The notes beneath the pieces are model-generated. The model made no database searches. It worked only from the letters and a program-made list of their open reading frames with translations, and was not told the DNA's origin. DNA of 32,000 nucleotides from Acaryochloris marina MBIC11017 (lineage in GTDB: Bacteria; Cyanobacteriota; Cyanobacteriia; Thermosynechococcales; Thermosynechococcaceae), in NCBI RefSeq assembly GCF_000018105.1, contig NC_009925.1, positions 3,150,001 through 3,182,000 on the forward strand, written 5' to 3'. The position numbers and the translations under genes were made by a program. Positions 9,406 to 32,000 of the stretch are shown piece after piece. Positions within the stretch are counted from its first letter, which is position 1. Every line of letters starts with the position of its first letter.

Positions 9406-10155
9406 TTGTACATATCATCTGAGCAACTAAAACAAGATCTGATAAATGTCGGTGTCTGTGCTGGCGATACGCTTATGGTCCATGCTTCACTTCGCGCCCT
9501 TGGACCCATCGACGGCAGAGCTGAAGCATTGGTAAGGACTGTGCTTTCAGTCTTGGGAAATCAAGGGACACTCGTCGCTTATGTCGATTTTGAACCGACG
9601 CCCGATATTCCTTACTTCGATCCGCAAAGGTCGCCAGCTAGTCAAGAATTTGGTGTCTTAGTTGAAGTGGTTCGGACTTGGCCGGGAGCGGTTCGTTCTC
9701 TTAATCCTGGTGCCTCCATGGTGGCGATTGGCGCTCAGGCTGAGTGGCTATGTCACGGTCATCCTCTGAACTATGGCTATGGTCCTGGTTCTCCCTTATC
9801 TAAGCTGGTGGAAATTGGTGGAAAAATTCTATTGCTGGGCTCGGATTTGAACAATGTGACGATTCTCCATTACGCCGAACATTGTGCTCGGTTGCCCAAT
9901 AAGCGCGTGATTCAGCGGACCGATCGAATGCTTGTCGATGAGACTGTTGTGGATGTTGGCATCGAAGAATTCGATACGAGTGCATTGGTGATTGATGCAA
10001 TGCCGACGGATTACTTTGCGCAGATTACCCAGGAATTTGTAGACGCTAGATATGCTCACACGGGCAGGGTAGGCAATGCACCCTCAATTCTTCTTCCAGC
10101 GCCAGAATTTGTATCCTTTGCGATCGCAAAAATGGAACGAGAATTTGGTGGGTGA
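9406..10155 (+). CDS. AAC(3)-family (Antibiotic_NAT) N-acetyltransferase
   Basis: L..VGVCAGDTLMVHASLRALGPIDGRAEALVRTVLSVLGNQGTLV is the characteristic N-terminal block of aminoglycoside 3-N-acetyltransferases. TTG start. Substrate unknown. Confidence 0.75.
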   Translation: MYISSEQLKQDLINVGVCAGDTLMVHASLRALGPIDGRAEALVRTVLSVLGNQGTLVAYVDFEPTPDIPYFDPQRSPASQEFGVLVEVVRTWPGAVRSLNPGASMVAIGAQAEWLCHGHPLNYGYGPGSPLSKLVEIGGKILLLGSDLNNVTILHYAEHCARLPNKRVIQRTDRMLVDETVVDVGIEEFDTSALVIDAMPTDYFAQITQEFVDARYAHTGRVGNAPSILLPAPEFVSFAIAKMEREFGG

Positions 10156-17384: not shown

Positions 17385-18059
17385 CTATTCGCCGATGGTC
17401 ACTTCCGCGGGCGGTAAAGTGCCAATGCGATCAAAGGGCAGAAAACGAAAGACAGCTCTTCCTACTAGATCGGCATGGGCAACTAATCCCCAACAGCGAC
17501 CATCATAGCTATTGCCTCGGTTATCGCCTAAAACAAGGTAATGCTTGTCTGGAATCGTTTGAGGCTTTTCTAAAAAGATAGGAACGGGCGGTTCAATGGG
17601 CTGGCTATCGACATCTGAAGTGACATAATTGTTACGGCAGTGGTCTTCGCTAGGTCCAACAGTGACGCCTTCAGCGGTGTAATTTTCTTTAATGGGCTGA
17701 TTGTTGACCCAAACCACCCCATTTTTGATTTCAACTTGATCACCGGGGACACCCACGACCCGTTTAATAAACGCTTCTTTAAAATTGGCTCGCTTTAAGG
17801 ATTCAGTAGGATTGAACACCACTACATCACCCCGTTCAGGATCCCGAAAGCGATAGGTGACTTTATCAATGATCAAACGATCATGAATTTGCAAAGTGGG
17901 TTCCATCGACCCGGATGGAATAAAGCGGGCTTCCGCGACAAAGGTGCGAATTCCAAATGCCAAAAGTAGACTTAACCCGACCGTCTTGGCTGCTTCCACC
18001 CACCAAGATTCTTCTGGTTGTTCCGTTGGTTTCAGATCAGGGGGTTGGGGTTGCGTCAT
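17385..18059 (-). CDS. lepB: Signal peptidase I (paralogue A)
   Basis: Catalytic Ser box IPSGSMEPTL, Lys box KRVVGVPGD, and GDNRGNSYDGRCWG. Confidence 0.9.
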   Translation of the reverse strand: MTQPQPPDLKPTEQPEESWWVEAAKTVGLSLLLAFGIRTFVAEARFIPSGSMEPTLQIHDRLIIDKVTYRFRDPERGDVVVFNPTESLKRANFKEAFIKRVVGVPGDQVEIKNGVVWVNNQPIKENYTAEGVTVGPSEDHCRNNYVTSDVDSQPIEPPVPIFLEKPQTIPDKHYLVLGDNRGNSYDGRCWGLVAHADLVGRAVFRFLPFDRIGTLPPAEVTIGE

Positions 18060-18179: not shown

Positions 18180-18788
18180 TTACTCTAAATTTCCAATTCG
18201 GTGAACTGGCCAATAGCGAAAGACTGCTCGACCCAATAAATCTGAACGAGATACTAATCCCCAACAGCGGCCATCGTAGCTGTTGAGACGATTATCACCC
18301 AGAACGAGATAGTGGTCTGCAGGTACCACTTGGGGTAATCCTAGAAAGGATTTAGATAGAGAGGGTGGACAGACTTGAACAGATGTTTTGGCCTTATGAG
18401 CCACATATTGTTCTCGAATCTTGACCTGATTGCGATAGACAGCGCCATCTTTAAGCTCTAATTGATCTCCCGGGATGCCAATCACACGTTTAATAATCGT
18501 GTCCATGGAGAGTGGAGCGTCCTGTCGATCGACATGCTGCCGTAAAGCCTGGGGCGGACGGAAGACGATAATATCCCCCCGTTGAGGGGAATTAAATTGG
18601 TAAGTGACTTTATCGATAATCAAGCGATCGTGAATTTGCAGCGTTGGCTCCATCGACCCTGAAGGGATGAAACGGGCCTCGGCGACAAAAGACCGAATAC
18701 CAAATGCCAACAACAAGCTGAGTCCCACCGTTTTGGTTGCTTCTCGCCATCCCACTTTTGTAGAGAAAAAAAATGACTTTTTCAGCAT
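18180..18788 (-). CDS. lepB: Signal peptidase I (paralogue B)
   Basis: [19 protein letters not shown] and [14 protein letters not shown] are all present. Confidence 0.9.
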   Translation of the reverse strand: [202 protein letters not shown]

Positions 18789-20790: not shown

Positions 20791-22143
20791 TTAGCTTTTT
20801 TCTTCATTAGGAGGAGCACCGGCATTCCGAACATTTAAAATCCGACCTAATAAGTCAAACCAGAATGGAGCTCCCATGGCAATTGCAATAGCAGTTACTA
20901 ACCAGCCAAGTGTGGCTTTAAATAAGCCACCTTGATGGTTGATTTGTTGTGTAATTTTGGTCCAAGTAATTTTTGGTTCATTTTGCTGTGAGTCAGAAGG
21001 CTGTTCTGATGAAGACGGCTGTTCAGTCTGGATAGTTTTCGAGTTCTGTTCCGCTTCAGATAGTGGTTTCTGCTGGTTTTCTTGAGTAGGCTCTTCTTCT
21101 TTAGTAGAAGGAGAAGCTTTGTCTATTACAGATATTTTCTGATCTTTCTTAGCTTGAGATGACGGATCTGATTTTTCTGGCGGTGTATAGTTCCAACCAA
21201 GAGGTAAAGGGCCTATGGACTCAAGGATAGGATTTATTTCAGAAACAAAGTTATCAATACAGTCTAGAGAAGGGGTGTCTTGAGTGTTTTGATTGCCCTC
21301 TGATTGTTTAGAGTCACAGCGAAACAACTCTGAATTTTCTTCAATAGCTGTAGAAAGCGAGGTTGTATATTTTGTAGGTGAATGGTTTAAGCTACGCAAG
21401 ATTTGAAAAGTATCAGCATTAGCAATAACCGCGACCATAAAACCTAAAAGGAAAGATACACCTCTAGCATTACGCTTGTATACCCCTGAAGATCTTTTCT
21501 GGACACTAACAAAGATTTTCTGAATTTGCTCACTAAAATCCGCCAACGTAGCATTGCTACTTTGGATTCTTAAGGCTTCTGTAATTCTTATTAGTGACGA
21601 TATTCCTGCAATTTTTGGTTCTAAATACTGTAGCTTGTTAGTGACAATATCAACAGTATCATCATTCTTTAGATATTGGGGAGAATCTAGTTGAGATAGT
21701 TCATCTTGCAATGTATCGATTAGTGCATTTGCAAAAGTCTCAGAAGAGTCAATATATGAAGGTCCTGTAGAAAATCTAAATTTTGTGCTACGATGATTTT
21801 CTAGAAAAATACTTAGAATAAACTGCCATAATCTTCTTACATAATTTTTGTATGTTCGTTGATTCAATGATGCTATTAATGGACTTTCATATAAAAGATT
21901 AGTAAGAGATTTCTTACTTTTTTTGCTATTTTTATTTCCATCATTCTCGTCATTTTCACTAGGCATATTGTAGGCATCAACTTTATCTTCACCAAACAAT
22001 ATAAAAAGTGATGTTTTTAATCGATTTGCTCTAAATTCAAGAATCGAAGAGATTGCTTCTTGAATCTCACTGACAATTAGAGACAAAAGCAAATAAATAA
22101 AAATCAGATAGATTACAATTTGAATTATTTGAGAAAAAGACAT
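20791..22143 (-). CDS. Hypothetical 3-TM membrane protein with a Ser/Gln/Glu/Lys-rich low-complexity linker
   Basis: TM1 is IIQIVIYLIFIYLLLSLIV, followed by SEIQEAISSILEFRANRL. TM2 is VSFLLGFMVAVIANA. The C-terminus ends in LGWLVTAIAIAMGAPFWFDLLGRILNVRNAG. These terminal motifs recur in uncharacterised bacterial membrane proteins as I remember them. Confidence 0.6.
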   Translation of the reverse strand: MSFSQIIQIVIYLIFIYLLLSLIVSEIQEAISSILEFRANRLKTSLFILFGEDKVDAYNMPSENDENDGNKNSKKSKKSLTNLLYESPLIASLNQRTYKNYVRRLWQFILSIFLENHRSTKFRFSTGPSYIDSSETFANALIDTLQDELSQLDSPQYLKNDDTVDIVTNKLQYLEPKIAGISSLIRITEALRIQSSNATLADFSEQIQKIFVSVQKRSSGVYKRNARGVSFLLGFMVAVIANADTFQILRSLNHSPTKYTTSLSTAIEENSELFRCDSKQSEGNQNTQDTPSLDCIDNFVSEINPILESIGPLPLGWNYTPPEKSDPSSQAKKDQKISVIDKASPSTKEEEPTQENQQKPLSEAEQNSKTIQTEQPSSSEQPSDSQQNEPKITWTKITQQINHQGGLFKATLGWLVTAIAIAMGAPFWFDLLGRILNVRNAGAPPNEEKS

Positions 22144-22297
22144 AAATAGTATAAACGATAGAATTTTATATGATTTATTAATAGCAATTATCTATCATAA
22201 TGATCTGCATTGAAATGTAAAATACTACAAAGATATCGCTATTCCTAAACAAAACTTTCATAAAATTAGATATATAGATTTTTCTAAAAATAAGTTT

Positions 22298-22323
22298 AAA
22301 AAGCAACATATATGTTGCTTTTT
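22298..22323. terminator. Rho-independent terminator downstream of the outer-membrane protein gene
   Basis: aaaaagcaacata/tatgttgcttttt is a perfect 26-bp palindrome with A and T runs on either side. It lies 24 nt after the stop at 22347. Confidence 0.6.
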
Positions 22324-22346
22324 AACTATCAGAAGATGCTTTTTAT

Positions 22347-23627
22347 CTAGAAAGTTAAGCCTAATCCAATTGACAATTCGTTAACGTTTTGGCCAGTAAG
22401 ATCTATATCTCCTACTCTATAATTAACTAATAAATTTGCATTACCAGTATCATCAAGCCGATAAGAAAGGGTGGAAGAAAATAGATGGCTTGTTTCACCA
22501 TCTCCGGCAATATTCTGCAAAAAACTATACTCAGCTTGCAATCCTAACCGACCGAAAAATTCTGCTTCACGGTTTGCTGGGAAAAACTCGATTTCAAGTT
22601 TTGGCCCTGCTCTAAAAAGCAAGTCACCATCTACTCTATCTGTAATATTGCCAGCATCTAATACAGTTGCCAATTGAGTTTCTAAAATTGCACGCCATCT
22701 GAAACGGAGGGCATCACCGAAAATCTCTTGGGCTTGACCTAATCCAATATGCCTATTTTTTGGCTCCCATTGAAGCTGAGCTCCAAATATAGAGCTATCA
22801 AAATTAGAATCAGTTTGATATAAAAAGTTACCTCGGAAATATTGACTTGGGAAAACACTGCTACCTTGGACTTCAAAATCTGTATTGAGTGCAAAAGTTA
22901 AGATATCTTCATCGTCAAAAGCATCAGCACTGTTTTCAACTCTATCTATTTCAATGCCTGGAGTTATTTGGTATCGAGTTAAAGTCAATTTATCTGGCTC
23001 TAAATCTTCTTCATTAATTTCGGTTAGTATTGGATAAAAAAGTCCACCACGCACAGTAAAAATTGTGTTGTCAGCTTCAAAATCTCTTGTAAAGTTTAGA
23101 ATGGCGGAATCAGCTTCTTGTATTGGGGCTAAAGAGTCAAGAATAGTTACATCTTCGATATCTCTTCGTAACCTTATACCAGAACCAGCAATTCCATCTT
23201 TCTCAATACTGGGTGGAGGACCAACTATTTTACTAATGTAATCATTTGCCACCTCTAGCGTTAATTGACCATCATTTTTTTGCCTTAAGCTATTTAATTC
23301 ATCATTCGCAATTTTTAATCTATTAATTTTGACATCATTATTATTTGGATCTGAAATTTCAATGTCATCATTATTAAATGCATTCTTTATCTCTTCAAGA
23401 GTGACTATACCATCTGCTGGATCAATATCTATCTCTAAAAATGACGGATTAATTAATTTCATAACAAGCTTTTGCTGCTCATTATTTTCTTCGGAATTAT
23501 CGACTAATTGATTCCCATTTGCATCAAAATCTTCTGCCTTAATCTGTGCTTTTACTAATGTAGAAAAATTACTAAATAGTAATGTCAAAATTACAACATA
23601 TATTCTTGATTTAATATTCATATCCAT
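22347..23627 (-). CDS. Putative outer-membrane beta-barrel protein with an Asp/Asn-rich EF-hand-like N-terminal domain
   Basis: Signal peptide ends ...FSTLVKA|Q. The acidic N-domain carries DFDANGNQLVD and DIDPADGIVTLEEIKNAF. The C-terminal two-thirds have alternating-hydrophobic strands and end in GLGLTF; a terminal Phe is the OMP/BAM signature. Confidence 0.6.
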   Translation of the reverse strand: MDMNIKSRIYVVILTLLFSNFSTLVKAQIKAEDFDANGNQLVDNSEENNEQQKLVMKLINPSFLEIDIDPADGIVTLEEIKNAFNNDDIEISDPNNNDVKINRLKIANDELNSLRQKNDGQLTLEVANDYISKIVGPPPSIEKDGIAGSGIRLRRDIEDVTILDSLAPIQEADSAILNFTRDFEADNTIFTVRGGLFYPILTEINEEDLEPDKLTLTRYQITPGIEIDRVENSADAFDDEDILTFALNTDFEVQGSSVFPSQYFRGNFLYQTDSNFDSSIFGAQLQWEPKNRHIGLGQAQEIFGDALRFRWRAILETQLATVLDAGNITDRVDGDLLFRAGPKLEIEFFPANREAEFFGRLGLQAEYSFLQNIAGDGETSHLFSSTLSYRLDDTGNANLLVNYRVGDIDLTGQNVNELSIGLGLTF

Positions 23628-24019
23628 TTTTTAAATCTACTTATATAGAAATCTGAGAGCTGATTTACAAGGCACATCTTGAAGCCTCTACATCCCTAGT
23701 TTAGTAATAACTAAAGCTATGAATTTGATAGGTTTATCTCATAAATTCTTGTCTTTAGAAGATTCCAGAAACATAACGAAACAGCTCTGAGTTCGGCACA
23801 ATCTGAAACCCAATCTTTATGTATGCATATTTCAAAATTTTGCTTAACTTAAGCTTCGAATTGAAGATATAAATGGTAGTTCATACTAATTTCATATAGG
23901 ATAAACCTAGATATTTTGAAGTGAATAATTTTGCAGTGCTTTAACTACTCAATGTAAATCATTATTCAATAAATATCTCCATTTAAAATCTTCTTGAAGT
24001 CTCTATAGAAACAAAACAG

Positions 24020-24298
24020 TTATATTTTGCCCCAAATAAGTGCTGCAACTTCCGCTACTAATTCACATGCTTGATACTTAGATGGTATGATTGCAACGCC
24101 ACCTATATCAGCAAAAGGAGCGCCATCTCGGACTGAATTGAATTCGGCTGATAGGCCACTTATTGCACCTTCATCCATCCCTAAATCTTCACGCAAACGT
24201 TGCAATAGAGAGTCAGCATCAAGATGTTCTTTAACTCTGTTGTTTACTTCTGATCTACTTAAAGTATGAGATGATCTTGAGACATTATTTGACGTCAT
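24020..24298 (-). CDS. Small hypothetical protein (92 aa from the internal ATG)
   Basis: ORF 24020-24370. I prefer the ATG at 24296-24298 (MTSNNVSRS...), which is preceded by GAGGA. No family recognised, so coding status is uncertain. Confidence 0.4.
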   Translation of the reverse strand: MTSNNVSRSSHTLSRSEVNNRVKEHLDADSLLQRLREDLGMDEGAISGLSAEFNSVRDGAPFADIGGVAIIPSKYQACELVAEVAALIWGKI

Positions 24299-24400
24299 AA
24301 TTTCGCAAATCCTCGAAAAACCACTAAATCTAGCTAATAATCTAAAAATATCCAATTTAAATATTCTCACTCTTAATCAGTAGAAAAAATTATTATATTT

Positions 24401-24431: not shown

Positions 24432-24666
24432 AAAGACTTATACAAAAGATACAAAAGTAATATCTATAAGTCAGTGCTAAAAAGTGACTACTTGTATTAA
24501 GAAAGTTTTCAATAAAGTCTTTTAATAACACATCGTTGTTTTAAAAAGTTTGATTGATATCTTCAACTTTAGATTTTGTTTGCATAATCTACTAGCCCAG
24601 GCCTGACAAGTATTACAGAAAGATGTGATCTAAATTACATCGAGCTTTGTTGGAATACTCTACTGG

Positions 24667-26181
24667 GTGCAGATAATCACGATGACTATTGAGGATGCCT
24701 TAGCTTTAATTGATACAGCCCTTGATCCTTCTTGCTTCAAGAACCTCCACCAAGATATCTTTCGCTTATCCTGGGAAGGCAAATCCTACCAAGAAATAGC
24801 TGAAACCTGCGGCTATGACACTGATTACGTCAGACATGTTGGCTATCAACTTTGGCAAAACCTCTCTCAAGCCTTGGCACAAAAAGTGACTAAAAGGAAC
24901 TTGCAAGTTGTATTCCGCCGTTTAGAACAACAAAGCCAAATCTTAAGTAATGACGTAGAAGAGATTGCCAGTCTTGTTCCCAAACCTCAACAAGCTAAAA
25001 GCAATATCAACGCTTACGTCACTAAAGTTGAACTCGTCTCAGATCAAACAACTTACCCACTCCTATGGTCTGATTCACCCAACTATCTCTATACCAAACA
25101 TAGTCAGCATTTTGTAGGTCGCCAACAGGAACAGAAAAATCTGATTCAGTGGCTAACTCGTACAGGACAAGACCAAACGCTTCCTGTTCAACTCATTAGT
25201 CTTCTAGGCATGGCAGGAATTGGCAAAACCTCCCTAGTACAACAAGTGATTCATCAGATACAAGGTCACTTTCAAAAGGTTATTTGGTGCTCCCTTCGTA
25301 ATGCTCCAACCTTTAATGAAACCTTCGCCAACATAGTCAATACTGATGAGCAAGAAGCCCTACAATGGCCTACTTATATTGATGCTCAAATTGAAATTCT
25401 GATGCGCTATTTCTGCCAGCATCGGTGCTTATTGGTTTTAGATAACTTTGAAACCATCTTGCAACCTGGTCAAATGGGAGGACATTATCGCTCTAATCAT
25501 CAAGCCTATGGCCAACTCCTCAGGCATTTGATGGATTCCCCTCATCAAAGTTGTGTTCTACTCACCAGTCGAGAACAACCTATTGGCATTAACTTACGCA
25601 ATCAACCCACCGTGCAAACCCTTTACTTACACGGACTGTCACCTTCAGAAACCCACCTCCTCTTGAACCATCAGGAGGTCAAGACAACCCAAACCGACGC
25701 TGAAAACTTAAACGCTTATTATGGGGGCAATCCCTATGCACTTAAAGTCGCAGCGACCAATGTTACATCTTTATTTCACCGCCAAGTTGCTGAATGGATA
25801 AAACAAGGCAACTTTGTATTTGGAACCATTCAGCAACTCTTAAAACAACAGCTCCAACGACTAGCGCCTCCCGAGCAGGAGATCGTTAACTTTATTGCTG
25901 CAGAAACAGGCAACGTCACCCTAGATCGACTGCATACAGCATTAGTTCTCAAAGATCTCGTTTCAACTACCGATCTTTTACCTGCATTGCAATCTCTTCA
26001 GAGTCGTTCTTTACTCTGTAACCAAGAAGATGGTCTACAACTATTGCCGTATCTCCGTGAATATTTGCGTTGTTACCAGACCTCTATTGGTGCAAAGCAT
26101 AGAGCCAGTACACCCGAAGTATTGACGAGTTTTCAGCCTGCAGCGCTTCTCTCTACTTCTCTGCCCTTAGCTCATGGCTAG
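24667..26181 (+). CDS. STAND-class P-loop NTPase (NB-ARC/NACHT-like) with an N-terminal HTH-like module and no C-terminal sensor repeats
   Basis: The N-terminal block (EDALALIDTAL....L.....FRLSWEGKSYQEIAETCGYDTDYVRHVGYQLWQNLSQALAQKVTKRNLQVVFRR) is the module found at the N-terminus of many cyanobacterial NB-ARC/WD40 proteins. Walker A is GMAGIGKTS at nt 25207-25233. Walker B is LLVLDNFE at nt 25429-25452. The likely start is the ATG at 24682. The gene ends 15 nt inside the convergent thioesterase gene. Confidence 0.8.
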   Translation: MQIITMTIEDALALIDTALDPSCFKNLHQDIFRLSWEGKSYQEIAETCGYDTDYVRHVGYQLWQNLSQALAQKVTKRNLQVVFRRLEQQSQILSNDVEEIASLVPKPQQAKSNINAYVTKVELVSDQTTYPLLWSDSPNYLYTKHSQHFVGRQQEQKNLIQWLTRTGQDQTLPVQLISLLGMAGIGKTSLVQQVIHQIQGHFQKVIWCSLRNAPTFNETFANIVNTDEQEALQWPTYIDAQIEILMRYFCQHRCLLVLDNFETILQPGQMGGHYRSNHQAYGQLLRHLMDSPHQSCVLLTSREQPIGINLRNQPTVQTLYLHGLSPSETHLLLNHQEVKTTQTDAENLNAYYGGNPYALKVAATNVTSLFHRQVAEWIKQGNFVFGTIQQLLKQQLQRLAPPEQEIVNFIAAETGNVTLDRLHTALVLKDLVSTTDLLPALQSLQSRSLLCNQEDGLQLLPYLREYLRCYQTSIGAKHRASTPEVLTSFQPAALLSTSLPLAHG

Positions 26182-26580
26182 ACTCCATCGCTGAATCCAG
26201 GTCACCAATTCTTTTGGTAGGGGCTGGCGTTGCCGATTAATGGGATTAATACATACATGCCGAATCGTCGCCTTGGCAATCAGACGTTCCCCTTTATTCA
26301 CCGCTGTAATGTTGTAGCGAACTTCAAATTCATCTTCAGCGAGTTGGTGAGTACTCAGTTGAAGGGTTAACTGATCGCCACAAAAACTGGGCTTGAGAAA
26401 ATCAATATCGGCATGGATGATTGGCGTTGCCGTATCTGGGTTGCTAAAGAATGTACGAATATCAATCCCCGCTCCCATCAGAGAATCTTCAAAGGCTTCA
26501 TGACAGATATCAAGGGCGCTGGTGAAATAGACTACCCCCGCAGCATCAGTATCTTGGAGACGAACGGTACGTGTGTACAT
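26167..26580 (-). CDS. 4HBT-fold thioesterase, cyanobacterial 1,4-dihydroxy-2-naphthoyl-CoA hydrolase type (phylloquinone pathway)
   Basis: MYTRTVRLQDTDAAGVVYFTSALDICHEAFE... resembles the Synechocystis DHNA-CoA thioesterase family. I prefer the ATG at 26578-26580. The longer ORF to 26703 would overlap the upstream gene. Confidence 0.75.
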   Translation of the reverse strand: MYTRTVRLQDTDAAGVVYFTSALDICHEAFEDSLMGAGIDIRTFFSNPDTATPIIHADIDFLKPSFCGDQLTLQLSTHQLAEDEFEVRYNITAVNKGERLIAKATIRHVCINPINRQRQPLPKELVTWIQRWSLAMS

Positions 26581-26675
26581 GGGCCACTGTATAAAACTGA
26601 ATATTAAGAGGATAGACACAGATGGTCCCCTCTTGATCAGTGCATATTTTCTGGCAAAGAAAGAGAATTTAGATA

Positions 26676-27545
26676 TTAGCCTTCTTTCAGCAAATAGGCG
26701 CACCCTGCCCCCATCATCTCAGCCCCAACATTGATAAACCGATAAATCGCGACTGCTGTTAACAACAACCCAGGAGACAGATAGGGGTGCAAGATATCAA
26801 TAGCGGATGCTTCAAAGACACCCATACCTGCTGGAGTAGGTATCACTAAGCTCAGTAGCCAAGCCATGCTAAAACCACTCATCAATGGACTAAGTGCTGA
26901 CCAATTAATCGGTGTAAAGGCCAAGACAATCAGGATAAAAATTAGCCCTCGTAGCACCATAAACAAGATGGCTCCCAGTAGAACTCGCAGCGGATAGTAT
27001 TGCATCTTGACACTACTCACTTGCTTGCCCTTGAGCTTACGAACCTGCTGCCACAAAAAATTGAGAACTCGGGGATGGAGGATCAGCAAAATCACGCCGA
27101 GCAATGCGCTTAGCCAAAGGCCGTAGGACGTATTCCACAATGCCAGTCCGATGGCGGCCGCAATGACGAAGAGTGGCTCCAGTAAAACACTTAAGGTTGC
27201 TAACTCTAGCCCTAAACCTTTTTTCTGGGCAGCTTTGACCTGACCATATAAATGCCACACACTACCTGGAATATATTTAGCGGGAGTATGTCTTAAGAAG
27301 GTGATGATGGCCCATCGTTTAGGGAGTGGATGTTTAAAGGCGGCTAAAATCCAGCACCACAATATACCTAACCAGAGTTGTGCGAAGAGTGCGATCGCAA
27401 ATGCAGCACCCCCATATAACCAGGCCTGTTGCTGTAGTTCCAGGGCTTTGACATCCTGCCAATGATTGAGCAACGTCTTGATCAGGAAAATAAGGGTTGC
27501 ACCCAATATTCCCCAGCGAACAAAAAACTTGAAGTACCGATGCAT
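26676..27545 (-). CDS. Polytopic membrane protein, UPF0104 / LPG-synthase-TM (flippase-like) family candidate
   Basis: About 8 TM segments plus the KYIPGSVW motif. The family call is from memory and is moderate. Confidence 0.5.
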   Translation of the reverse strand: MHRYFKFFVRWGILGATLIFLIKTLLNHWQDVKALELQQQAWLYGGAAFAIALFAQLWLGILWCWILAAFKHPLPKRWAIITFLRHTPAKYIPGSVWHLYGQVKAAQKKGLGLELATLSVLLEPLFVIAAAIGLALWNTSYGLWLSALLGVILLILHPRVLNFLWQQVRKLKGKQVSSVKMQYYPLRVLLGAILFMVLRGLIFILIVLAFTPINWSALSPLMSGFSMAWLLSLVIPTPAGMGVFEASAIDILHPYLSPGLLLTAVAIYRFINVGAEMMGAGCAYLLKEG

Positions 27546-27751
27546 GAACCTAATTCCTAACTGCCCCCGGCTCTGCCCTTAACGTACCCAGGTCAACCAC
27601 AGGTCCATAATGCAGATAAAAGACTTAACCCTTGGAATGTGCCTATCATGCGCGATCTGTCTCTGTTGATGTTGTATGGTGGGTCACATGAGCATTTCAA
27701 GGAAAGGGTTGCACTCCACTGAAGTTTTTGCAGCAGCCCTAATCGAACTAT

Positions 27752-28192
27752 TTGCCTGCGAACATCATGAGAGATATCGGACTAACCCATATTGCCCTCC
27801 CGGTGGCAGACATTCATCGCAGTATTGAGTTTTATGCCACCTATGCTCAGATGCAGGTTGTTCACAAACGTCTCGATGGGGCATCCGGTATCCCCGTCGT
27901 GTGGTTATCGGATGGCATCCGACCTTTTGTGATTGTGTTGATTCAAAAAGAAGTGGTGCAACCTGTGTTAACCCCATTAGCCCACTTAGGAGTTGGGTGT
28001 CCCAGCCGGGAAGCATTGGATCGCCTCTGTGATCAAGCGAAACAACAGGGAATTCTGTTAGATGGGCCTCAAGATTCTGGCTATCCCGTTGGTTATTGGG
28101 CCTTTCTACGAGATCCAGATGGTCACACCTTAGAGTTATCCTATGGCCAAGAAGTGGGCCTGACTGTTGAGCAAGCTATCCAACAAGACTAA
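27752..28192 (+). CDS. VOC-family (glyoxalase/bleomycin-resistance/dioxygenase fold) protein
   Basis: GLTHIALPVADIHRSIEFY...FLRDPDGHTLELS. The likely start is the ATG at 27767. Confidence 0.8.
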   Translation: MPANIMRDIGLTHIALPVADIHRSIEFYATYAQMQVVHKRLDGASGIPVVWLSDGIRPFVIVLIQKEVVQPVLTPLAHLGVGCPSREALDRLCDQAKQQGILLDGPQDSGYPVGYWAFLRDPDGHTLELSYGQEVGLTVEQAIQQD

Positions 28193-28326
28193 ACATCTCT
28201 CACCCCAACATTTGACGAGCACAATCCACATCAGCCTTGGGCAATTGGCCGTCGCGACCCCACCATCCCTCAGCAAGATCGGTATACTGATAAACGGTTG
28301 AACAAGCATTAGGGCACAACTTCAAT

Positions 28327-29163
28327 ATGCAGGATAGTCGCAGTAATAGTTTGATCACAGTTTTCAGTGTTGCCTTAATTGTATTAGTGGTCGTCTTCAG
28401 TAGTTTTTTTGTGATTAACCCTGGTCAGGCAGGTGTCGTCAGCATCTTAGGAAAAGCCAGAGATACCCCATTCTTAGAAGGCATTCACCTCAAGCCCCCT
28501 GTGATTTCGGCTGTAGATGTCTATGACCTCACAGTGCAAAAGTTTGAAGTCCCCGCTCAAAGTTCGACCAAAGATCTCCAAGATCTCAATGCTCGCTTCG
28601 CCATTAACTTCCGACTTGACCCGATGCAAGTCGTAGAAATTCGCCGTACCCAGGGGACCCTAGCGAACATTGTCTCCAAAATTATTGCCCCTCAAACGCA
28701 AGAATCCTTTAAAATCGCTGCTGCAAGAAGGACAGTCGAAGAAGCTATTACCCAACGGGCAGAACTCAAGCAGGATTTTGATGATGTCTTAGAGAACCGT
28801 TTAGAGAAGTACGGTATCCTTGTCCTGGATACCAGCGTGATTGACTTAGAATTTTCGCCTGAGTTTGCTAAATCTGTAGAAGATAAACAAGTTGCAGAAC
28901 AACGGTCTAAACGCGCTGTTTTTGTTGCCCAAGAAGCTGAGCAACAAGCCCAAGCAGATATTAATCGTGCTAAAGGAAAAGCGGAAGCCCAAAGATTATT
29001 AGCAGAAACCCTCAAAGCCCAAGGCGGCAACTTAGTCTTGCAAAAAGAAGCCATCTCGGCTTGGCGCGAAGGGGGATCTCAAATGCCGGAAGTTCTAGTT
29101 ACCAGCGGCTCTGAACAAGCGAATGCTCCATTTCTGTTCAATTTCAATGACTTGCCGAAATAA
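28327..29163 (+). CDS. Prohibitin / SPFH (band 7) family protein
   Basis: N-terminal TM, then INPGQAGVVSILGK..., an SPFH body, and a C-terminal Ala/Glu/Gln coiled coil (AEQQAQADINRAKGKAEAQRLLAE). Confidence 0.9.
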   Translation: MQDSRSNSLITVFSVALIVLVVVFSSFFVINPGQAGVVSILGKARDTPFLEGIHLKPPVISAVDVYDLTVQKFEVPAQSSTKDLQDLNARFAINFRLDPMQVVEIRRTQGTLANIVSKIIAPQTQESFKIAAARRTVEEAITQRAELKQDFDDVLENRLEKYGILVLDTSVIDLEFSPEFAKSVEDKQVAEQRSKRAVFVAQEAEQQAQADINRAKGKAEAQRLLAETLKAQGGNLVLQKEAISAWREGGSQMPEVLVTSGSEQANAPFLFNFNDLPK

Positions 29164-29220
29164 GTGACTTTGATCGGTCGGTAGCTACCAGTATTCGGAA
29201 ACATCAGCCCAAGCGCCATC

Positions 29221-31200
29221 CTAGAAATTCTCGTTTCGGTAAGAAAATTGATGTTGATAGCATTGGCGTCTTAAAGTGCTAGATAACCCTCTAGGACCAC
29301 AATAGTAAACGTCGACGGGCTCCGTTGGATATTGCTTCTTTAATTGGGTAAAAATCGACTTCCAATCGGGCCTACCAGCCTGAATTTGGTTCTTTAAACC
29401 TGTAATTAAATCAACCTGATGCTCTTGATGGAGTAAGTCAAAGGCAGCATATGTAGTTAAAAACTGCAGATTACTCCCTGTGGGGGCACCCGTTAAATAC
29501 AAATTGAGATCAAATAAATCAAAATTATCTTCTGCTTCTAGTCTTTGTAGCATCTCCAATAACCATTCAAATGAGTCTTGGCTGCGATTAAACCAATAGA
29601 AATGGACTTTCTGAAGCTGCAGGAGAGTTGACTCAGCTTGACGCTGATGCAAAATACTTTGTAGTAATGAGGCATAGGGGGTTACGCCAATGCCTCCAGC
29701 AATTAAAACGGCATATGTGGATTGATAGATATGGCTACTGGGGCTGTGATAAGGACCATCTAAATACACTGGAATTTTAGGCAAAGCAGTCTGACCATTC
29801 CGTTTTTCTGTGAAGTCTCGAAATTGACTATAGAGAGTACCTGTCCAGCTCCCTAGTGCTCGTATATGTAAAGACAAAGTGTCCTCTCGTTCAGGGGGAC
29901 TGCTAATCGTAAAAGGATGCCATTCATAAGTGGCAATATGGGGGCATCGTAAATAAAGATAGTCAGACGCTTTGAATGTGAAGTCGTGGGGACGAGCAAT
30001 TTCTAATGCTAGGACATTGCTGGGTAAAACTTGGGCATTGACGATATGGGTTTGTTTTGTACTACGACGATATCGAACAACTTGCTCAATTAGAAAAGCG
30101 CCAATGGATACAGCCGCCCACTTATAAAAATGAGGACCATGTAAAAGCATGAGTCCGATCCAAGGGATATACGCTAAATGCATGGTGAAAAAGAGATTAA
30201 AATTCCCCTTCTCTCGAATAAAAGGTAGAGCAGTAAACCACATTAACAACAGCAAGAGCATCAGTAATAAGCCGGTCCATCCTGAGCCGTAAAGTAAGAA
30301 AAGACGCACAGGATAATCAATTTGAAAAGCTGCTGTTTCTGCAAGATGATTATTCAGATGAGCCACGGTATGGACAAGGCCTAACGAAAAAATCATTTGG
30401 CCAACCAGTTTATGGAATGCTAGATGCTCATCAATGGGTAAATAGTCATTCAGCTTGGTTTTTCTCAGCCATGTCATCCAACGCCGCAGGATGGGGACTA
30501 AAATCAATGCGCCATTAAAATTAAGGGCTAACCCACAGCCTCGAGCGATTCGATACCAAACAGTATGGAGCCTATACTGCGGTAAACGATAGGCGTAACA
30601 AAATAAAGCAATATTGATTCCAAAATACAGCGCTAGAAATAGAAGCTTAATCCAATTGTTTTGGACATAATGCCATCGCTGTAGCCAATATTCTGGCTGG
30701 CTCTGTTGATCTGAGCTGTCAGACCTTGGCTGCAACCATTGCGCTGGACTGACAGATAAAATGTCTTTCAATCGAGGAGATTGACTTAGTAGATCCTTAA
30801 ATTCTGATAAGGATATTTCTTTATTTTGATTAGTATCTGCTTTCTTAAATAGGATGTCTCTGACTTGCTGAAATTGTGCGGTTGAGAGATCAAAGTTTCC
30901 CTCTCTCAAGCTACTTCGAATAAATTTTGCGAGTTCTTGCTTATCAATACAGCCATCATCATTGCCATCATGGAGTTGAAAAGCAAATTCGAGTGGATTC
31001 TCTTGCGCTTGATGAATGCCGTTGTGAAACTCTTCAAAACTAATCCCTTTAGTTTGATCAGCATCAAAAATATGAAATAGACGTTCGCACAAATATTTGT
31101 TCGTCAACTCAAAAGCGATTTGGAATTCTTCAATCGTGAGCCTTAGATCATCGCCAGCATAGTCTTGAAACTTTTGTTCTAAGATTTCTAGATTATTCAT
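29221..31200 (-). CDS. EF-hand-containing NADPH oxidase (NOX5-like): ferric-reductase TM domain plus FAD/NADPH dehydrogenase domain
   Basis: EF-hand loops are DGNDDGCIDKQE (canonical), DTNQNKEISLSE and DADQTKGISFEE. Two bis-His heme pairs have NOX spacing: H-x13-H in FHKLVGQMIFSLGLVH and H-x12-H in HLAYIPWIGLMLLH. FAD motif HPFTISS, NADPH motif GGIGVTP, then ITGLK...GRPDW, CGP, and a C-terminal NENF as in animal NOX. Confidence 0.9.
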   Translation of the reverse strand: MNNLEILEQKFQDYAGDDLRLTIEEFQIAFELTNKYLCERLFHIFDADQTKGISFEEFHNGIHQAQENPLEFAFQLHDGNDDGCIDKQELAKFIRSSLREGNFDLSTAQFQQVRDILFKKADTNQNKEISLSEFKDLLSQSPRLKDILSVSPAQWLQPRSDSSDQQSQPEYWLQRWHYVQNNWIKLLFLALYFGINIALFCYAYRLPQYRLHTVWYRIARGCGLALNFNGALILVPILRRWMTWLRKTKLNDYLPIDEHLAFHKLVGQMIFSLGLVHTVAHLNNHLAETAAFQIDYPVRLFLLYGSGWTGLLLMLLLLLMWFTALPFIREKGNFNLFFTMHLAYIPWIGLMLLHGPHFYKWAAVSIGAFLIEQVVRYRRSTKQTHIVNAQVLPSNVLALEIARPHDFTFKASDYLYLRCPHIATYEWHPFTISSPPEREDTLSLHIRALGSWTGTLYSQFRDFTEKRNGQTALPKIPVYLDGPYHSPSSHIYQSTYAVLIAGGIGVTPYASLLQSILHQRQAESTLLQLQKVHFYWFNRSQDSFEWLLEMLQRLEAEDNFDLFDLNLYLTGAPTGSNLQFLTTYAAFDLLHQEHQVDLITGLKNQIQAGRPDWKSIFTQLKKQYPTEPVDVYYCGPRGLSSTLRRQCYQHQFSYRNENF

Positions 31201-31656
31201 GGGTGGGCTAAAGGATAAAGAAATTGTTCGAAGCCTCTAGTCTTTATATTAAAGCTAACCTTTTAAGGCTGACTTTTAAAAAATTAATGAGAGATATTTT
31301 TGATATTCTAAAGGTGGAAATAAAATCAGATTTAAGTGCAATTTAATTTGTGTCTTGCAAACATATTGATAAATGTTTATGCATAATACTTGACTGCGAT
31401 TTTGGATTTTTAGATAAAACCAAAAATTGGATAACTTGAAACTATATAATTTCCCATTAGGTTGGAAAGTGTAAAGCGTATAAAAATGATGATAGTCTAT
31501 AGTTATTGAAAGATGGTACTAGCAATATATACGTTTTTTCTACTAATTATTAATGATAAGAATATTTATATTATCTAAGCTGAAAATAATATGTTTATAT
31601 TCTTCTTGAGATGATATATGACCAATCGTTTGGTCATTGCTAACTACCATAGTTCA

Positions 31657-31808
31657 GAGGTTATTTATAAAGCAAACATTAGATGAGGTCTGAAATCCAT
31701 GATGTGCAATCAAACTAGCGTTTTTATCTCAGAAGTCATCATTCAAATCTCACAGCCTTTACTCAAAAGCGTTTAGCCTCATCTAATGTTTGCTTTATAA
31801 ATAACCTC
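31657..31808. repeat. Perfect 32-bp inverted repeat pair separated by 88 bp
   Basis: Left arm 31657-31688 is gaggttatttataaagcaaacattagatgagg. Right arm 31777-31808 is its exact reverse complement. Pairing stops abruptly at both the inner and outer edges. Confidence 0.9.
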
Positions 31809-32000
31809 CCAGTGGATATAGTAAGGCAATTTGTTCATGGGCCTTGCTATGCTTTCTCTGGCTATATAAGCTACCACTGCTGAACACCATGCCATTTTTG
31901 AGGTAACCAGCAGATGAGAAATTAGAGCTTGGTATGACAACTGTGATGATACTGGCTTACGGTAACCATTGCGGACTGATGCCAGAGCCAACGGAATACG
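31779..32000 (-). CDS. 3' end of an unidentified gene that continues beyond the window
   Basis: The frame is open to the window edge (RIP upstream of the listed TTG). G+C is normal until the last ~10 codons, which lie inside the right arm of the inverted repeat. Confidence 0.35.
   Translation of the reverse strand, partial: RIPLALASVRNGYRKPVSSQLSYQALISHLLVTSKMAWCSAVVAYIARESIARPMNKLPYYIHWEVIYKANIR

What the first reader, a model, noticed from the sequence alone, without database searches (positions are those of the whole stretch)
29221..31200. Eukaryote-type, EF-hand-regulated NADPH oxidase (NOX5-like) in a bacterial genome
The whole NOX architecture is present. There are three readable EF-hand loops. 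The six-TM ferric-reductase domain has the H-x13-H and H-x12-H heme ligand spacing seen in animal NOX2. Also present are HPFTISS (FAD), GGIGVTP (NADPH), ITGLK..GRPDW, CGP and the terminal ...NENF. Cyanobacterial NOX5 homologues are known; the Cylindrospermum stagnale protein was used for NOX structural work. So this is rare rather than new, and the physiological role in cyanobacteria is unresolved. The gene has lower G+C than the core genes and no HIP1. It sits beside a 450-bp AT-rich spacer and an inverted-repeat element, which suggests accessory status.
Basis: partly seen in the sequence, partly recalled or inferred. Interest (0 to 1): 0.58.

Follow-up and report, generated by a model that had tools for sequence, protein, structure and literature searches.

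The report
Known cyanobacterial NOX5 gene (AM1_3152)
The gene is a real, intact, calcium-regulated NADPH oxidase of the NOX5 type, but it is AM1_3152 of Acaryochloris marina, which two papers have already described as a NOX5-like bacterial gene, so it is correct but not new.

Summary
A 659-aa ORF lies at 29221-31200 on the minus strand. It encodes an EF-hand domain, a six-helix di-haem ferric-reductase domain and an FAD/NADPH dehydrogenase domain.

The protein is identical to ABW28148.1 / UniProt B0CEP3. That is AM1_3152 on the 6.5-Mb chromosome of Acaryochloris marina MBIC11017. Zhang et al. 2013 name this gene, and Hajjar et al. 2017 name this species' NOX5-like sequences, as probable transfers from eukaryotes.

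Every catalytic residue mapped in the Cylindrospermum stagnale NOX5 crystal structures is conserved. The predicted fold matches full-length human NOX5. The gene is under strong purifying selection (dN/dS about 0.09) in all three domains.

The "accessory" inference is weak:
- The gene sits in a chromosomal block collinear with a related strain.
- Its synonymous divergence matches that of its neighbours.
- Its G+C is only about 2 SD low.
- The absence of HIP1 is not significant.

It differs from animal NOX5 in lacking the CXXC zinc insertion and the phosphorylation insertion. Asn replaces one regulatory Asp, and Lys replaces Gly at position 6 of two EF loops.

As an aside, full-length NOX5-like genes are common in other bacteria, including Myxococcota and Burkholderiales. 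The physiological role remains untested.

The parts
29221..31200 (-). Complete coding sequence (659 aa plus stop) of the NOX5-type NADPH oxidase. It is identical to AM1_3152 / ABW28148.1 / UniProt B0CEP3 of Acaryochloris marina MBIC11017.
   Evidence: ORF list. Exact-sequence look-up (P0121 equals the window protein). Pfam architecture. PDB sequence matches.
30706..31200 (-). N-terminal calmodulin-like EF-hand regulatory domain plus linker (residues 1-165). The linker at 161-165 is predicted disordered.
   Evidence: Pfam EF-hand_7/6/1. It aligns with the human NOX5 EF domain from residue 7. pLDDT is below 50 only at 161-165. dN/dS is 0.11-0.13.
31123..31158 (-). EF-hand 1 loop equivalent (residues 15-26, AGDDLRLTIEEF). 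It is degenerate, as in the whole family.
   Evidence: It aligns with human NOX5 AGEDGEISLQEF. The first loop position is Ala in 108 of 119 homologues.
31030..31065 (-). EF-hand 2 loop (residues 46-57, DADQTKGISFEE). Ligand positions 1, 3, 5 and 12 are intact. Position 6 is Lys instead of the usual Gly.
   Evidence: Pattern match. Column counts give Gly at position 6 in 97 of 119 homologues and Lys in 4.
30934..30969 (-). EF-hand 3 loop (residues 78-89, DGNDDGCIDKQE), fully canonical.
30802..30837 (-). EF-hand 4 loop (residues 122-133, DTNQNKEISLSE). The ligand positions are intact, and position 6 is Lys instead of Gly.
   Evidence: Gly at position 6 in 101 of 119 homologues.
30064..30672 (-). 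Six-helix transmembrane ferric-reductase (di-haem) domain, residues 177-379.
   Evidence: It aligns with the csNOX5 membrane-domain crystal chain 5o0t over query residues 177-379. Foldseek gives TMt 0.87 to 5o0t.
30358..30414 (-). TM3 haem ligands His263 (inner haem) and His277 (outer haem), plus His281. His281 is the equivalent of csNOX5 His317 / human NOX2 His119 at the O2-reaction centre.
   Evidence: H-x13-H. H263 and H277 are invariant in 119 of 119 homologues, and H281 is His in 105 of 119. Residue roles come from PMC8129163 and PMC3591440.
30139..30180 (-). TM5 haem ligands His341 and His354, with Trp347 between the haems (csNOX5 Trp378 equivalent).
   Evidence: H-x12-H. Both His are invariant, and Trp is present in 89 of 119 homologues.
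30541..30543 (-). Arg220 codon, equivalent to csNOX5 Arg256 of the O2-binding cavity.
   Evidence: RGCG at 220-223. Arg is present in 100 of 119 homologues.
30271..30276 (-). Thr309-Gly310 in TM4. This is the dipeptide that, together with the two His residues, separates NOX enzymes from ferric reductases.
   Evidence: Position. TG in 90 and SG in 29 of 119 homologues. The criterion comes from PMC3591440.
29224..30057 (-). Cytosolic dehydrogenase domain (residues 382-659), made of FAD-binding and NADPH-binding sub-domains.
   Evidence: Pfam FAD_binding_8 at 384-487 and NAD_binding_6 at 496-647. E = 1e-104 to csNOX5 DH entry 5o0x. Foldseek TMt is 0.92-0.94.
29908..29919 (-). HPFT FAD-binding motif (residues 428-431).
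   Evidence: H, P and F invariant in 119 of 119.
29677..29697 (-). GGIGVTP NADPH-binding glycine motif (residues 502-508).
29401..29472 (-). Region equivalent to the regulatory EF-hand-binding segment of csNOX5 (611-634), here residues 577-600. Asn577 replaces Asp611. Asp597 corresponds to Asp631.
   Evidence: Alignment and column counts. The D611H and D631A/R mutant data for csNOX5 are in PMC7317449.
29224..29301 (-). CGP motif (residues 634-636) through the C-terminal Phe659. Phe659 is the aromatic residue at the flavin, equivalent to csNOX5 Phe693.
   Evidence: C, G and the terminal F invariant in 119 of 119.
31201..31656 (.). AT-rich (27% G+C) upstream intergenic region, presumably holding the promoter and 5' leader of the gene. 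It can be aligned with the equivalent region of a related strain.
   Evidence: G+C. The blastn block 24578-31629 is collinear with L002. Promoter-like matches are no more frequent than in shuffles. There is no Rfam hit.
28327..29163 (+). Convergent neighbour encoding an SPFH/Band-7 protein. It is conserved next to the NOX5 gene in L002; in L001 a minus-strand ORF occupies the same position and the DNA is collinear. No functional link is shown.
   Evidence: Pfam. Gene order in L002. ORF position and collinear DNA in L001.

Best explanation
The gene encodes a self-contained, calcium-activated NADPH oxidase of the NOX5 type. It is AM1_3152 of Acaryochloris marina MBIC11017.

Inferred mechanism, by homology with the characterised C. 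stagnale and human enzymes:
1. Cytoplasmic NADPH binds the C-terminal dehydrogenase domain and gives a hydride to FAD.
2. Single electrons pass from FAD to the inner haem (His263/His341).
3. They cross the membrane to the outer haem (His277/His354), with Trp347 between the two haems.
4. They reduce O2 held in a small cavity formed by Arg220, His281 and a haem propionate.
5. Superoxide is released on the non-cytoplasmic face.

The N-terminal four-EF-hand domain is the switch. When Ca2+ fills EF-hands 2-4, the domain folds and docks on the dehydrogenase domain near residues 577-600, around the invariant Asp597. That permits hydride transfer from NADPH to FAD.

What is shown here: the gene's identity, its intact architecture, conservation of every mapped catalytic residue, the predicted fold, purifying selection, and long residence in the Acaryochloris chromosome.

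What is inferred: cofactor loading, superoxide as the product, calcium dependence, which membrane holds the enzyme, and the physiological purpose. My best guess for the purpose is regulated export of reducing power as extracellular or periplasmic superoxide, serving signalling, photoacclimation or iron chemistry. That guess is untested.
For: Identity: the sequence is an exact match to ABW28148.1 / WP_012163573.1 / B0CEP3 (AM1_3152) on a 6,503,724-bp contig.

Architecture: EF-hand pair, Ferric_reduct, FAD_binding_8 and NAD_binding_6 all score above the Pfam cut-offs.

Homology to solved and assayed enzymes:
- Human NOX5, E = 7e-122 over the full length.
- csNOX5 DH, E = 1e-104, and csNOX5 TM, E = 1e-53.

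Residues:
- The four haem His, HPF, G503/I504/G505/T507, D597, C634/G635 and the terminal Phe are invariant in 119 homologues and present here.
- Arg220, His281, Trp347 and T309-G310 are present.
- Their roles come from PMC8129163 and PMC3591440.

Fold: the AlphaFold2 model has pLDDT 85.8. Foldseek gives TM-score 0.78/0.82 to human NOX5 entry 8u87, 0.92-0.94 (target-normalised) to csNOX5 DH and 0.87 to csNOX5 TM.

Selection: dN/dS is 0.09 overall, 0.11-0.13 in the EF domain, 0.08 in TM and 0.07-0.10 in DH, measured against two orthologues.

Biochemistry of the nearest assayed relative: csNOX5 in E. coli membranes reduces cytochrome c about five-fold faster with 1 mM Ca2+. It loses this response without the EF domain or with D631A/R (PMC7317449).
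Against: Nothing has been measured for this protein.

Asn577 sits where csNOX5 has Asp611, and the D611H mutant lost most of its calcium activation. However, that column varies across the family (D 72, G 14, N 13, H 13).

EF-hands 2 and 4 carry Lys instead of the usual Gly at loop position 6. This could lower calcium affinity.

The protein lacks the CXXC zinc motif that stabilises the human NOX5 dimer.

Identity to csNOX5-type Nostocales proteins is only about 48%. The Acaryochloris clade is the most divergent branch of the set.
Confidence: 0.85

Rival explanations
1. The enzyme has the NOX5 catalytic core, but its calcium switch is altered. It might be constitutive, need much higher Ca2+, or respond to another signal. 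The Acaryochloris clade has changed one regulatory aspartate and two EF-loop glycines.
For: N577 is at the csNOX5 D611 position, where D611H cut calcium-stimulated activity from 0.0159 to 0.0036. All Acaryochloris-clade sequences shown have Asn there. Lys is at loop position 6 of EF2 and EF4, where 97 and 101 of 119 homologues have Gly.
Against: Ligand positions 1, 3, 5 and 12 are intact in EF2-4. The EF domain is under purifying selection (dN/dS 0.11-0.13), so it is in use. D597, the residue whose mutation abolished activation entirely, is invariant. The D611 column is naturally variable across the family.
Confidence: 0.1
2. The protein works chiefly as a transmembrane ferric (metal) reductase for iron uptake, like the FRE branch of the same superfamily, rather than as a dedicated oxygen reductase.
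For: The membrane domain belongs to the ferric-reductase superfamily (Pfam PF01794). Marine cyanobacteria are often iron-limited. The product has not been measured.
Against: All four positions proposed to separate NOX from FRE enzymes (human NOX2 His101, His119, Thr178, Gly179; PMC3591440) are of the NOX type here: H263, H281, T309, G310. The O2-cavity residue Arg220 is present. The nearest assayed relative makes superoxide. The best matches are all NOX5, DUOX and NOX2, not FRE.
Confidence: 0.04
3. The gene is a recently acquired accessory gene on a mobile or island-like segment of this strain.
For: G+C and GC3 are about 2 SD below the other ORFs. A 27% G+C spacer and a perfect 32-nt inverted repeat lie upstream. 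Synteny with L002 breaks just beyond the spacer. The neighbours differ in A. thomasi. The orthologue of strain 'Moss Beach' is split in two.
Against: Window 24578-31629 is collinear with L002 at 86% nucleotide identity, spacer included. NOX5 dS (0.59) lies within the range of flanking genes such as ilvD (0.66) and Band-7 (0.72). Orthologues are present in the named A. marina-clade records returned by the cluster look-up and form a 100%-supported clade. The HIP1 absence has P = 0.17-0.37. There are no integrase, transposase or tRNA features next to the gene. Any inter-domain transfer must be ancient.
Confidence: 0.05

Closest known systems
Cylindrospermum stagnale NOX5 (csNOX5, UniProt K9WT99; PDB 5o0t, 5o0x, 8cak-8cb0)
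   Same: It has the same three-domain architecture and a similar length. All four haem histidines, Arg256/His317/Trp378, HPFT, the glycine NADPH motif, Asp631, CGP and the C-terminal Phe are conserved. Fold TM-scores are 0.87-0.94. In the tree it falls in the cyanobacterial group together with the Nostocales proteins (78-94% bootstrap).
   Different: Identity to the Nostocales-type proteins is only about 48%. The TM3-TM4 outer loop is five residues longer. Asn replaces Asp611. Lys replaces Gly at position 6 of EF2 and EF4. It has TG rather than SG in TM4. This protein has not been assayed.
Human NOX5 (PDB 8u7y, 8u85-8u87)
   Same: Full-length alignment with E = 7e-122 at about 35% identity. 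It has the same four-EF-hand, 6-TM and DH layout. The predicted fold matches 8u87 at TM-score 0.78/0.82.
   Different: It lacks the INS2 insertion with the CXXC zinc motif at the dimer interface. That motif is present in 15 of 15 animal sequences and 0 of 104 bacterial ones. It also lacks the long insertion between the FAD and NADPH sub-domains.
Streptococcus pneumoniae NOX (SpNOX) and the large group of EF-hand-less bacterial NOX/FRE 'long forms'
   Same: The TM + DH catalytic core and the bis-histidyl haem sites are the same. There is a Foldseek match.
   Different: SpNOX has no EF-hand domain, is constitutively active, and lacks the canonical O2-centre residues (PMC11564096). Identity is only about 16%, and TM-score is 0.39 (query-normalised).
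DUOX1/2 and plant RBOH (other EF-hand-regulated NOX enzymes)
   Same: They are calcium-regulated through EF-hands placed N-terminal to the same catalytic core. DUOX1 matches at E = 1e-63.
   Different: There is no peroxidase-homology domain, no extra TM helix and no DUOXA partner. There is no RBOH-type N-terminal NADPH_Ox domain (PF08414); no such Pfam hit appears.

Membership tests
NOX5-type (EF-hand) NADPH oxidase | Transmembrane ferric-reductase domain with two bis-histidyl haem sites: H-x13-H in TM3 and H-x12-H in TM5 | tested here: met
   H263/H277 and H341/H354. All four are invariant in 119 homologues. The domain aligns with csNOX5 TM entry 5o0t, with TMt 0.87.
NOX5-type (EF-hand) NADPH oxidase | NOX-versus-ferric-reductase signature (human NOX2 His101, His119, Thr178, Gly179) and the O2-cavity Arg (csNOX5 Arg256) | tested here: met
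   H263, H281, T309-G310 and R220. The criteria come from PMC3591440 and PMC8129163.
NOX5-type (EF-hand) NADPH oxidase | C-terminal dehydrogenase domain with HPFT (FAD), GxGxxP (NADPH), CGP and a C-terminal aromatic residue | tested here: met
   HPFT 428-431, GGIGVTP 502-508, CGP 634-636 and F659. Pfam PF08022 and PF08030. E = 1e-104 to 5o0x.
NOX5-type (EF-hand) NADPH oxidase | N-terminal calmodulin-like domain with four EF-hands, the first non-canonical | tested here: met
   Three canonical loops plus a degenerate EF1 that aligns with human EF1. Pfam EF-hand_7/6/1. Caveat: Lys replaces Gly at position 6 in EF2 and EF4.
NOX5-type (EF-hand) NADPH oxidase | Two aspartates in the EF-domain-binding segment of the DH domain (csNOX5 Asp611 and Asp631), needed for calcium activation | tested here: inconclusive
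   The Asp631 equivalent, D597, is present and invariant. The Asp611 equivalent is Asn577. That column varies in the family (D 72, G 14, N 13, H 13 of 119).
NOX5-type (EF-hand) NADPH oxidase | Groups phylogenetically with recognised NOX5 proteins | tested here: met
   NJ tree: Acaryochloris clade 100%. It joins the Nostocales (csNOX5-type) group at 78%, and at 94% with P0045 included. The literature places this gene in or near the NOX5 branch.
NOX5-type (EF-hand) NADPH oxidase | Ca2+-dependent, NADPH-driven superoxide production with bound haem b and FAD | not testable with these tools
   This has been shown only for csNOX5 and human NOX5.
Animal NOX5 proper (metazoan orthologue group) | [quoted passage not shown] | tested here: not met
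   The segment is 20 residues here with no Cys. Animals have 35-36 residues with CXXC. The motif is in 15 of 15 animal and 0 of 104 non-animal sequences. The protein is therefore a bacterial NOX5-type enzyme, not a member of the animal orthologue group.
SpNOX-type bacterial NOX | TM + DH core only, with no regulatory domain, and a clade separate from the eukaryotic NOX enzymes | tested here: not met
   An EF-hand domain is present. Identity to SpNOX is 16% and TMq is 0.39.
DUOX / RBOH | Peroxidase-homology ectodomain (DUOX) or NADPH_Ox N-terminal domain PF08414 (RBOH) | tested here: not met
   Neither domain appears among the Pfam hits. The protein begins directly with the EF-hand domain.

The most novel reading that the evidence does not exclude
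The literature view is that a very few cyanobacterial NOX5 genes were taken from a eukaryote. That view may be incomplete or even reversed.

Full-length EF-hand NOX5-type genes turn out to be widespread and deeply diverged in bacteria, including Cyanobacteriota, Myxococcota and Burkholderiales. They appear on many high-G+C metagenomic contigs of up to 1.4 Mb. All of them lack the animal-specific insertions.

The calcium-switched NOX could therefore be an old bacterial invention. It may have been exchanged among bacteria and passed to eukaryotes, rather than the other way round.

My trees cannot place the root. Animals join cyanobacteria with only 34% support, and a NOX2 outgroup attaches to the long Acaryochloris branch. 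The direction of transfer stays open.
Probability: 0.25. Interest if true: 0.55.

Novelty: already known. Interest (0 to 1): 0.27.

Why it matters
On its own merits the finding is a correct re-discovery. The gene, AM1_3152, is already cited in the NOX evolution literature, and a homologue from another cyanobacterium supplied the first NOX crystal structures.

Two questions remain open:
1. What does a calcium-triggered superoxide generator do for a cyanobacterium, and which membrane does it sit in? The present data add useful groundwork. The gene is intact, under purifying selection in all three domains, chromosomal, and long resident in the A. marina clade. A knock-out or expression study is therefore worthwhile.
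2. How far does the family extend in bacteria? It appears much broader than the papers I read state, which bears on where calcium-regulated NOX enzymes first arose.

Tried and rejected
- **Rfam scan of the whole window:** no family reached its threshold, so no known riboswitch or leader lies in the AT-rich spacer.
- **Promoter and terminator consensus scans of 29000-32000:** counts were no higher than in shuffled sequence.
- **PADLOC on NOX5 and its Band-7 neighbour:** no hits, so nothing suggests a defence-system role.
- **Rooting the family tree with the human NOX2 dehydrogenase domain** (sequence transcribed from the alignment): the outgroup attached to the long Acaryochloris branch in the point estimate, and to some bacterial-only group in 55 of 60 bootstraps. 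I treat this as long-branch attraction and draw no conclusion on the direction of transfer.
- **HIP1 absence as evidence of foreign origin:** rejected on simple Poisson grounds.
- **Further copies of the 32-nt inverted-repeat arm:** none found in the window with up to 3 mismatches, or in the fetched loci. I cannot say whether it is a repeated mobile element.
- **Genome-collection scan with the single protein:** it returned only one relative, L001, because the patterns were too strict. It is not a measure of distribution.
- **Magnani et al. 2017 (PNAS):** the paper is not held. Residue roles were taken from later open-access papers that restate them.
- **PHROGs and Pfam on the three ORFs of the low-G+C island:** no hits.
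Full report

Yes. The only long ORF in 29221..31200 is on the minus strand. It starts with ATG at 31200 and encodes 659 residues.

All the quoted motifs are present:
- H-x13-H at residues 263-277 and H-x12-H at 341-354
- HPFT at 428-431 and GGIGVTP at 502-508
- ITGLK at 599-603 and GRPDW at 609-613
- CGP at 634-636 and the terminal NENF
- Three EF-hand loops matching D-x-[DN]-x-[DNST]-x-x-I-x-x-x-E at 46-57, 78-89 and 122-133

Pfam finds EF-hand_7, EF-hand_6, EF-hand_1, Ferric_reduct, FAD_binding_8 and NAD_binding_6, each above its curated cut-off and in that order along the protein.

**2. What is it?**

Sequence comparison with solved structures is decisive:
- Human NOX5 aligns over the full length, E = 7e-122.
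- The C. stagnale NOX5 dehydrogenase domain (5o0x, 8cak) aligns with residues 382-659, E = 1e-104.
- The C. stagnale membrane domain (5o0t) aligns with residues 177-379, E = 1e-53.
- DUOX1 and NOX2 follow at about 1e-63.

An exact-sequence look-up shows the protein is ABW28148.1 / WP_012163573.1 / UniProt B0CEP3. That is locus AM1_3152 of Acaryochloris marina MBIC11017, on a contig of 6,503,724 bp (identity re-checked; taxonomy). A replicon of that size, together with housekeeping genes throughout the window (ddl, ilvD, two signal peptidases, a KaiB-domain gene), means the gene is chromosomal.

Zhang et al. 2013 name this very gene: "AM1_3152 ... [quoted passage not shown] It was the only paper in the library holding either identifier. 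Hajjar et al. 2017 also cite the NOX5-like sequences of A. marina as probable transfers from eukaryotes (PMC5676040). The finding is therefore already known.

**3. Residue-level test**

I aligned the protein with 118 full-length homologues. I mapped the residues whose roles are described for csNOX5 (PMC8129163; PMC7317449) and the NOX-versus-FRE signature (PMC3591440).

| Feature | Residues here | Conservation |
|---|---|---|
| Haem ligands | H263, H277, H341, H354 | 119 of 119 |
| O2-cavity residues | R220 (csR256), H281 (csH317 / hNOX2 H119) | present |
| Inter-haem Trp | W347 (csW378) | present |
| TM4 dipeptide | T309-G310 | present |
| Cofactor and C-terminal motifs | HPF, G503/I504/G505/T507, D597 (csD631), C634/G635, terminal F659 | invariant |

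That criterion is not met.

**4. Fold**

An AlphaFold2 model built from a 60-sequence alignment has mean pLDDT 85.8 and pTM 0.75. Only the EF-to-TM linker (161-165) is disordered.

Foldseek against the PDB:
- Human NOX5 cryo-EM structures come first: 8u87 has TM-score 0.78 by query and 0.82 by target.
- csNOX5 DH scores 0.92-0.94 and csNOX5 TM scores 0.87 (target-normalised).
- SpNOX is far behind, at 0.39 and 16% identity.

**5. Is the gene functional?**

Compared with the orthologues in L002 (89% amino-acid identity) and L001 (81%), dN/dS is 0.095 and 0.086. By domain it is 0.11-0.13 in the EF domain, 0.08 in the membrane domain and 0.07-0.10 in the dehydrogenase domain. All three parts, including the calcium sensor, are under purifying selection.

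**6. How it most likely works**

The steps below are inferred from homologues.
1. NADPH in the cytoplasm reduces FAD in the DH domain.
2. Electrons pass one at a time through the inner and outer haems.
3. O2 is reduced to superoxide at the Arg220/His281 cavity on the outer face.
4. Calcium acts through the EF domain.

Supporting data from the relatives:
- In csNOX5, activity in E. coli membranes rose about five-fold with 1 mM CaCl2. The response was lost on EF-domain deletion and in D631A/R.
- In human NOX5, Ca2+ moves the EF domain toward the membrane, remodels the NADPH pocket, and lets the nicotinamide reach FAD (PMC11088703).

Shown here are sequence, fold, conservation and selection. Not shown are cofactors, product, calcium response and membrane location.

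**7. Differences worth recording**

(a) Asn577 occupies the position of csNOX5 Asp611, whose D611H mutant lost most of its activation. All Acaryochloris-clade sequences shown have Asn. The column varies family-wide: D 72, G 14, N 13, H 13.

(b) EF2 and EF4 have Lys at loop position 6, where 97 and 101 of 119 homologues have Gly. Their ligand positions 1, 3, 5 and 12 are intact.

(c) The CXXC zinc motif in insertion INS2, which is important for human NOX5 dimer stability, is absent. It is found in 15 of 15 animal sequences and 0 of 104 others. The long FAD-NADPH inter-subdomain insertion of animals is also absent.

(d) The TM3-TM4 outer loop is five residues longer than in Nostocales proteins.

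**8. The "accessory" suggestion**

The gene's G+C (40.5%) and GC3 (36.2%) are about 2 SD below the other ORFs (47.0 +/- 3.0% and 44.4 +/- 4.6%). They are matched by ORF 2152-4512, and they are far from the truly aberrant ORFs at 20.8-24.4 kb, which have GC3 of 21-25%.

Having no HIP1 in 1980 bp has probability 0.17-0.37.

Synteny:
- The window from 24578 to 31629 is one collinear blastn block (86% identity) with L002, a contig from an A. marina-clade strain. The block includes the AT-rich spacer.
- The gene order NOX5 / Band-7 / glyoxalase / 289-aa membrane protein / thioesterase / STAND NTPase is kept in L002.
- L001 is collinear with the window across the NOX5 gene and the adjacent downstream ORF.

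Synonymous divergence of NOX5 between the window and L002 (dS 0.59) lies within the range of its neighbours: ilvD 0.66, Band-7 0.72, glyoxalase 0.58, membrane protein 0.48, thioesterase 0.53, STAND NTPase 0.35. The gene has therefore been inherited along with its surroundings.

Distribution within the genus:
- Orthologues occur in MBIC11017, CCMEE 5410, another A. marina record, NIES-2412 and 'Moss Beach'.
- They form a 100%-supported clade that also holds A. thomasi and several Acaryochloris MAGs.
- In A. thomasi the neighbours are different.
- In 'Moss Beach' the gene is annotated as two pieces, residues 1-457 and 473-659.

The gene is therefore long-resident in the genus. It is not fixed in position across the genus, and it may be dispensable in some lineages.

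Synteny with L002 ends at 31629. L002 then carries about 5.6 kb with a VWD-domain gene and a 1253-aa NB-ARC/WD40 gene. The window instead has the 152-bp inverted-repeat element and resumes homology at 31957. The repeat marks an indel upstream of the gene. It does not bound the gene.

**9. Comparison with what is known, and distribution**

My search returned 220 homologues with E <= 1e-10. Of the 119 full-length sequences analysed:
- 31 fall in the cyanobacterial group.
- 15 are animal.
- 73 are neither.

Source records name some of those 73 as Paraliomyxa miuraensis (Myxococcota), a Polyangiaceae MAG, a Burkholderiales MAG and an unclassified 'bacterium' MAG.

Three unnamed ones that I inspected lie on contigs of 0.43-1.39 Mb with 62-69% G+C. 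Their neighbours are typically bacterial: TetR, MarR, an ECF sigma factor and OsmC.

Mean identities are similar between the main groups:
- animals to cyanobacteria, 37-40%
- animals to the others, 38%
- cyanobacteria to the others, 37-43%

No held paper mentions NOX5 together with Myxococc*.

The animal-plus-cyanobacteria grouping has only 34% support in my NJ tree. Rooting with NOX2 was unreliable. I record this as an aside: the family is broader in bacteria than the papers I read say, and the direction of transfer is not settled by my data.

**10. Verdict**

- Novelty: already known.
- The physiological role is still untested. No paper I found reports a knock-out or activity assay for any Acaryochloris NOX5. 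Work on extracellular superoxide as a photoacclimation strategy in phytoplankton (PMC12684733) offers a testable hypothesis but does not address this enzyme.

Noticed in passing
window 31657-31808: A perfect 32-nt inverted repeat has arms 88 nt apart. It folds as a long hairpin (-71 kcal/mol, z = -9.8). It sits exactly where collinearity with the related strain L002 breaks. L002 has about 5.6 kb there, with a VWD-domain gene and a 1253-aa NB-ARC/WD40 gene. There is no second copy in the window or in the fetched loci, so I cannot tell whether it is a miniature mobile element or a deletion scar.
   Followed up: partly
window 20791-24370: A low-G+C island (ORF G+C 34-37%, GC3 21-25%, intergenic 21-29%) holds three ORFs of 450, 426 and 116 aa. 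None has a Pfam or PHROG hit, and there is only one marginal PADLOC hit (PD-T4-6, E = 9e-4). It lies between ilvD and a STAND NTPase. In L002 it is replaced by different genes of 701 and 219 aa. It is the most plausible recently acquired segment in the window.
   Followed up: partly
window 22347-23627 (-): The 426-aa island ORF has a signal-peptide-like N-terminus and ends in ...GLGLTF, like an outer-membrane beta-barrel. It also carries a loop, DANGNQLVDNSE, that fits the EF-hand ligand pattern D-x-N-x-N-x-x-x-D-x-x-E. This could be a second calcium-binding protein near the NOX5 gene, or it could be coincidence.
   Followed up: no
window 1-32000: HIP1 (GCGATCGC) is strongly enriched, with 16 sites against 0.27 expected, but very unevenly spread. 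Fifteen sites lie in the first 17 kb, none lie between 16842 and 27390, and one lies at 27391.
   Followed up: partly
window 24667-26181 (+): This 504-aa STAND-type NTPase (NB-ARC/NACHT/nSTAND1) borders the low-G+C island. It has the highest dN/dS (0.19) of the genes compared with L002. L002 carries a further 1253-aa NB-ARC/WD40 gene next to its NOX5 gene.
   Followed up: partly
loci L004, L005, L006; proteins P0031, P0084, P0107: Full-length EF-hand NOX5-type genes occur on large, high-G+C, clearly bacterial contigs and in Myxococcota and Burkholderiales records. This is far more than the 'very few cyanobacterial' cases described in the papers I read. In L004 an OsmC-family gene lies 43 bp upstream on the same strand.
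   Followed up: partly
proteins P0128 and P0129 (Acaryochloris sp. 'Moss Beach'): The orthologue of the NOX5 gene is annotated as two proteins covering residues 1-457 and 473-659. The break lies between the FAD and NADPH sub-domains. This is either a pseudogene or a sequencing error.
   Followed up: partly
window 17385-18059 and 18180-18788 (-): Two adjacent signal peptidase I (Peptidase_S26) paralogues lie in tandem.
   Followed up: no
window 391-1209 (+): This 272-aa ORF has a KaiB domain only at its C-terminus (residues 187-267). It is longer than a standard KaiB.
   Followed up: no
window 9406-10155 (+): This ORF is a full-length match to the aminoglycoside 3-N-acetyltransferase family (Antibiotic_NAT, E = 8e-60), in a chromosomal setting.
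   Followed up: no
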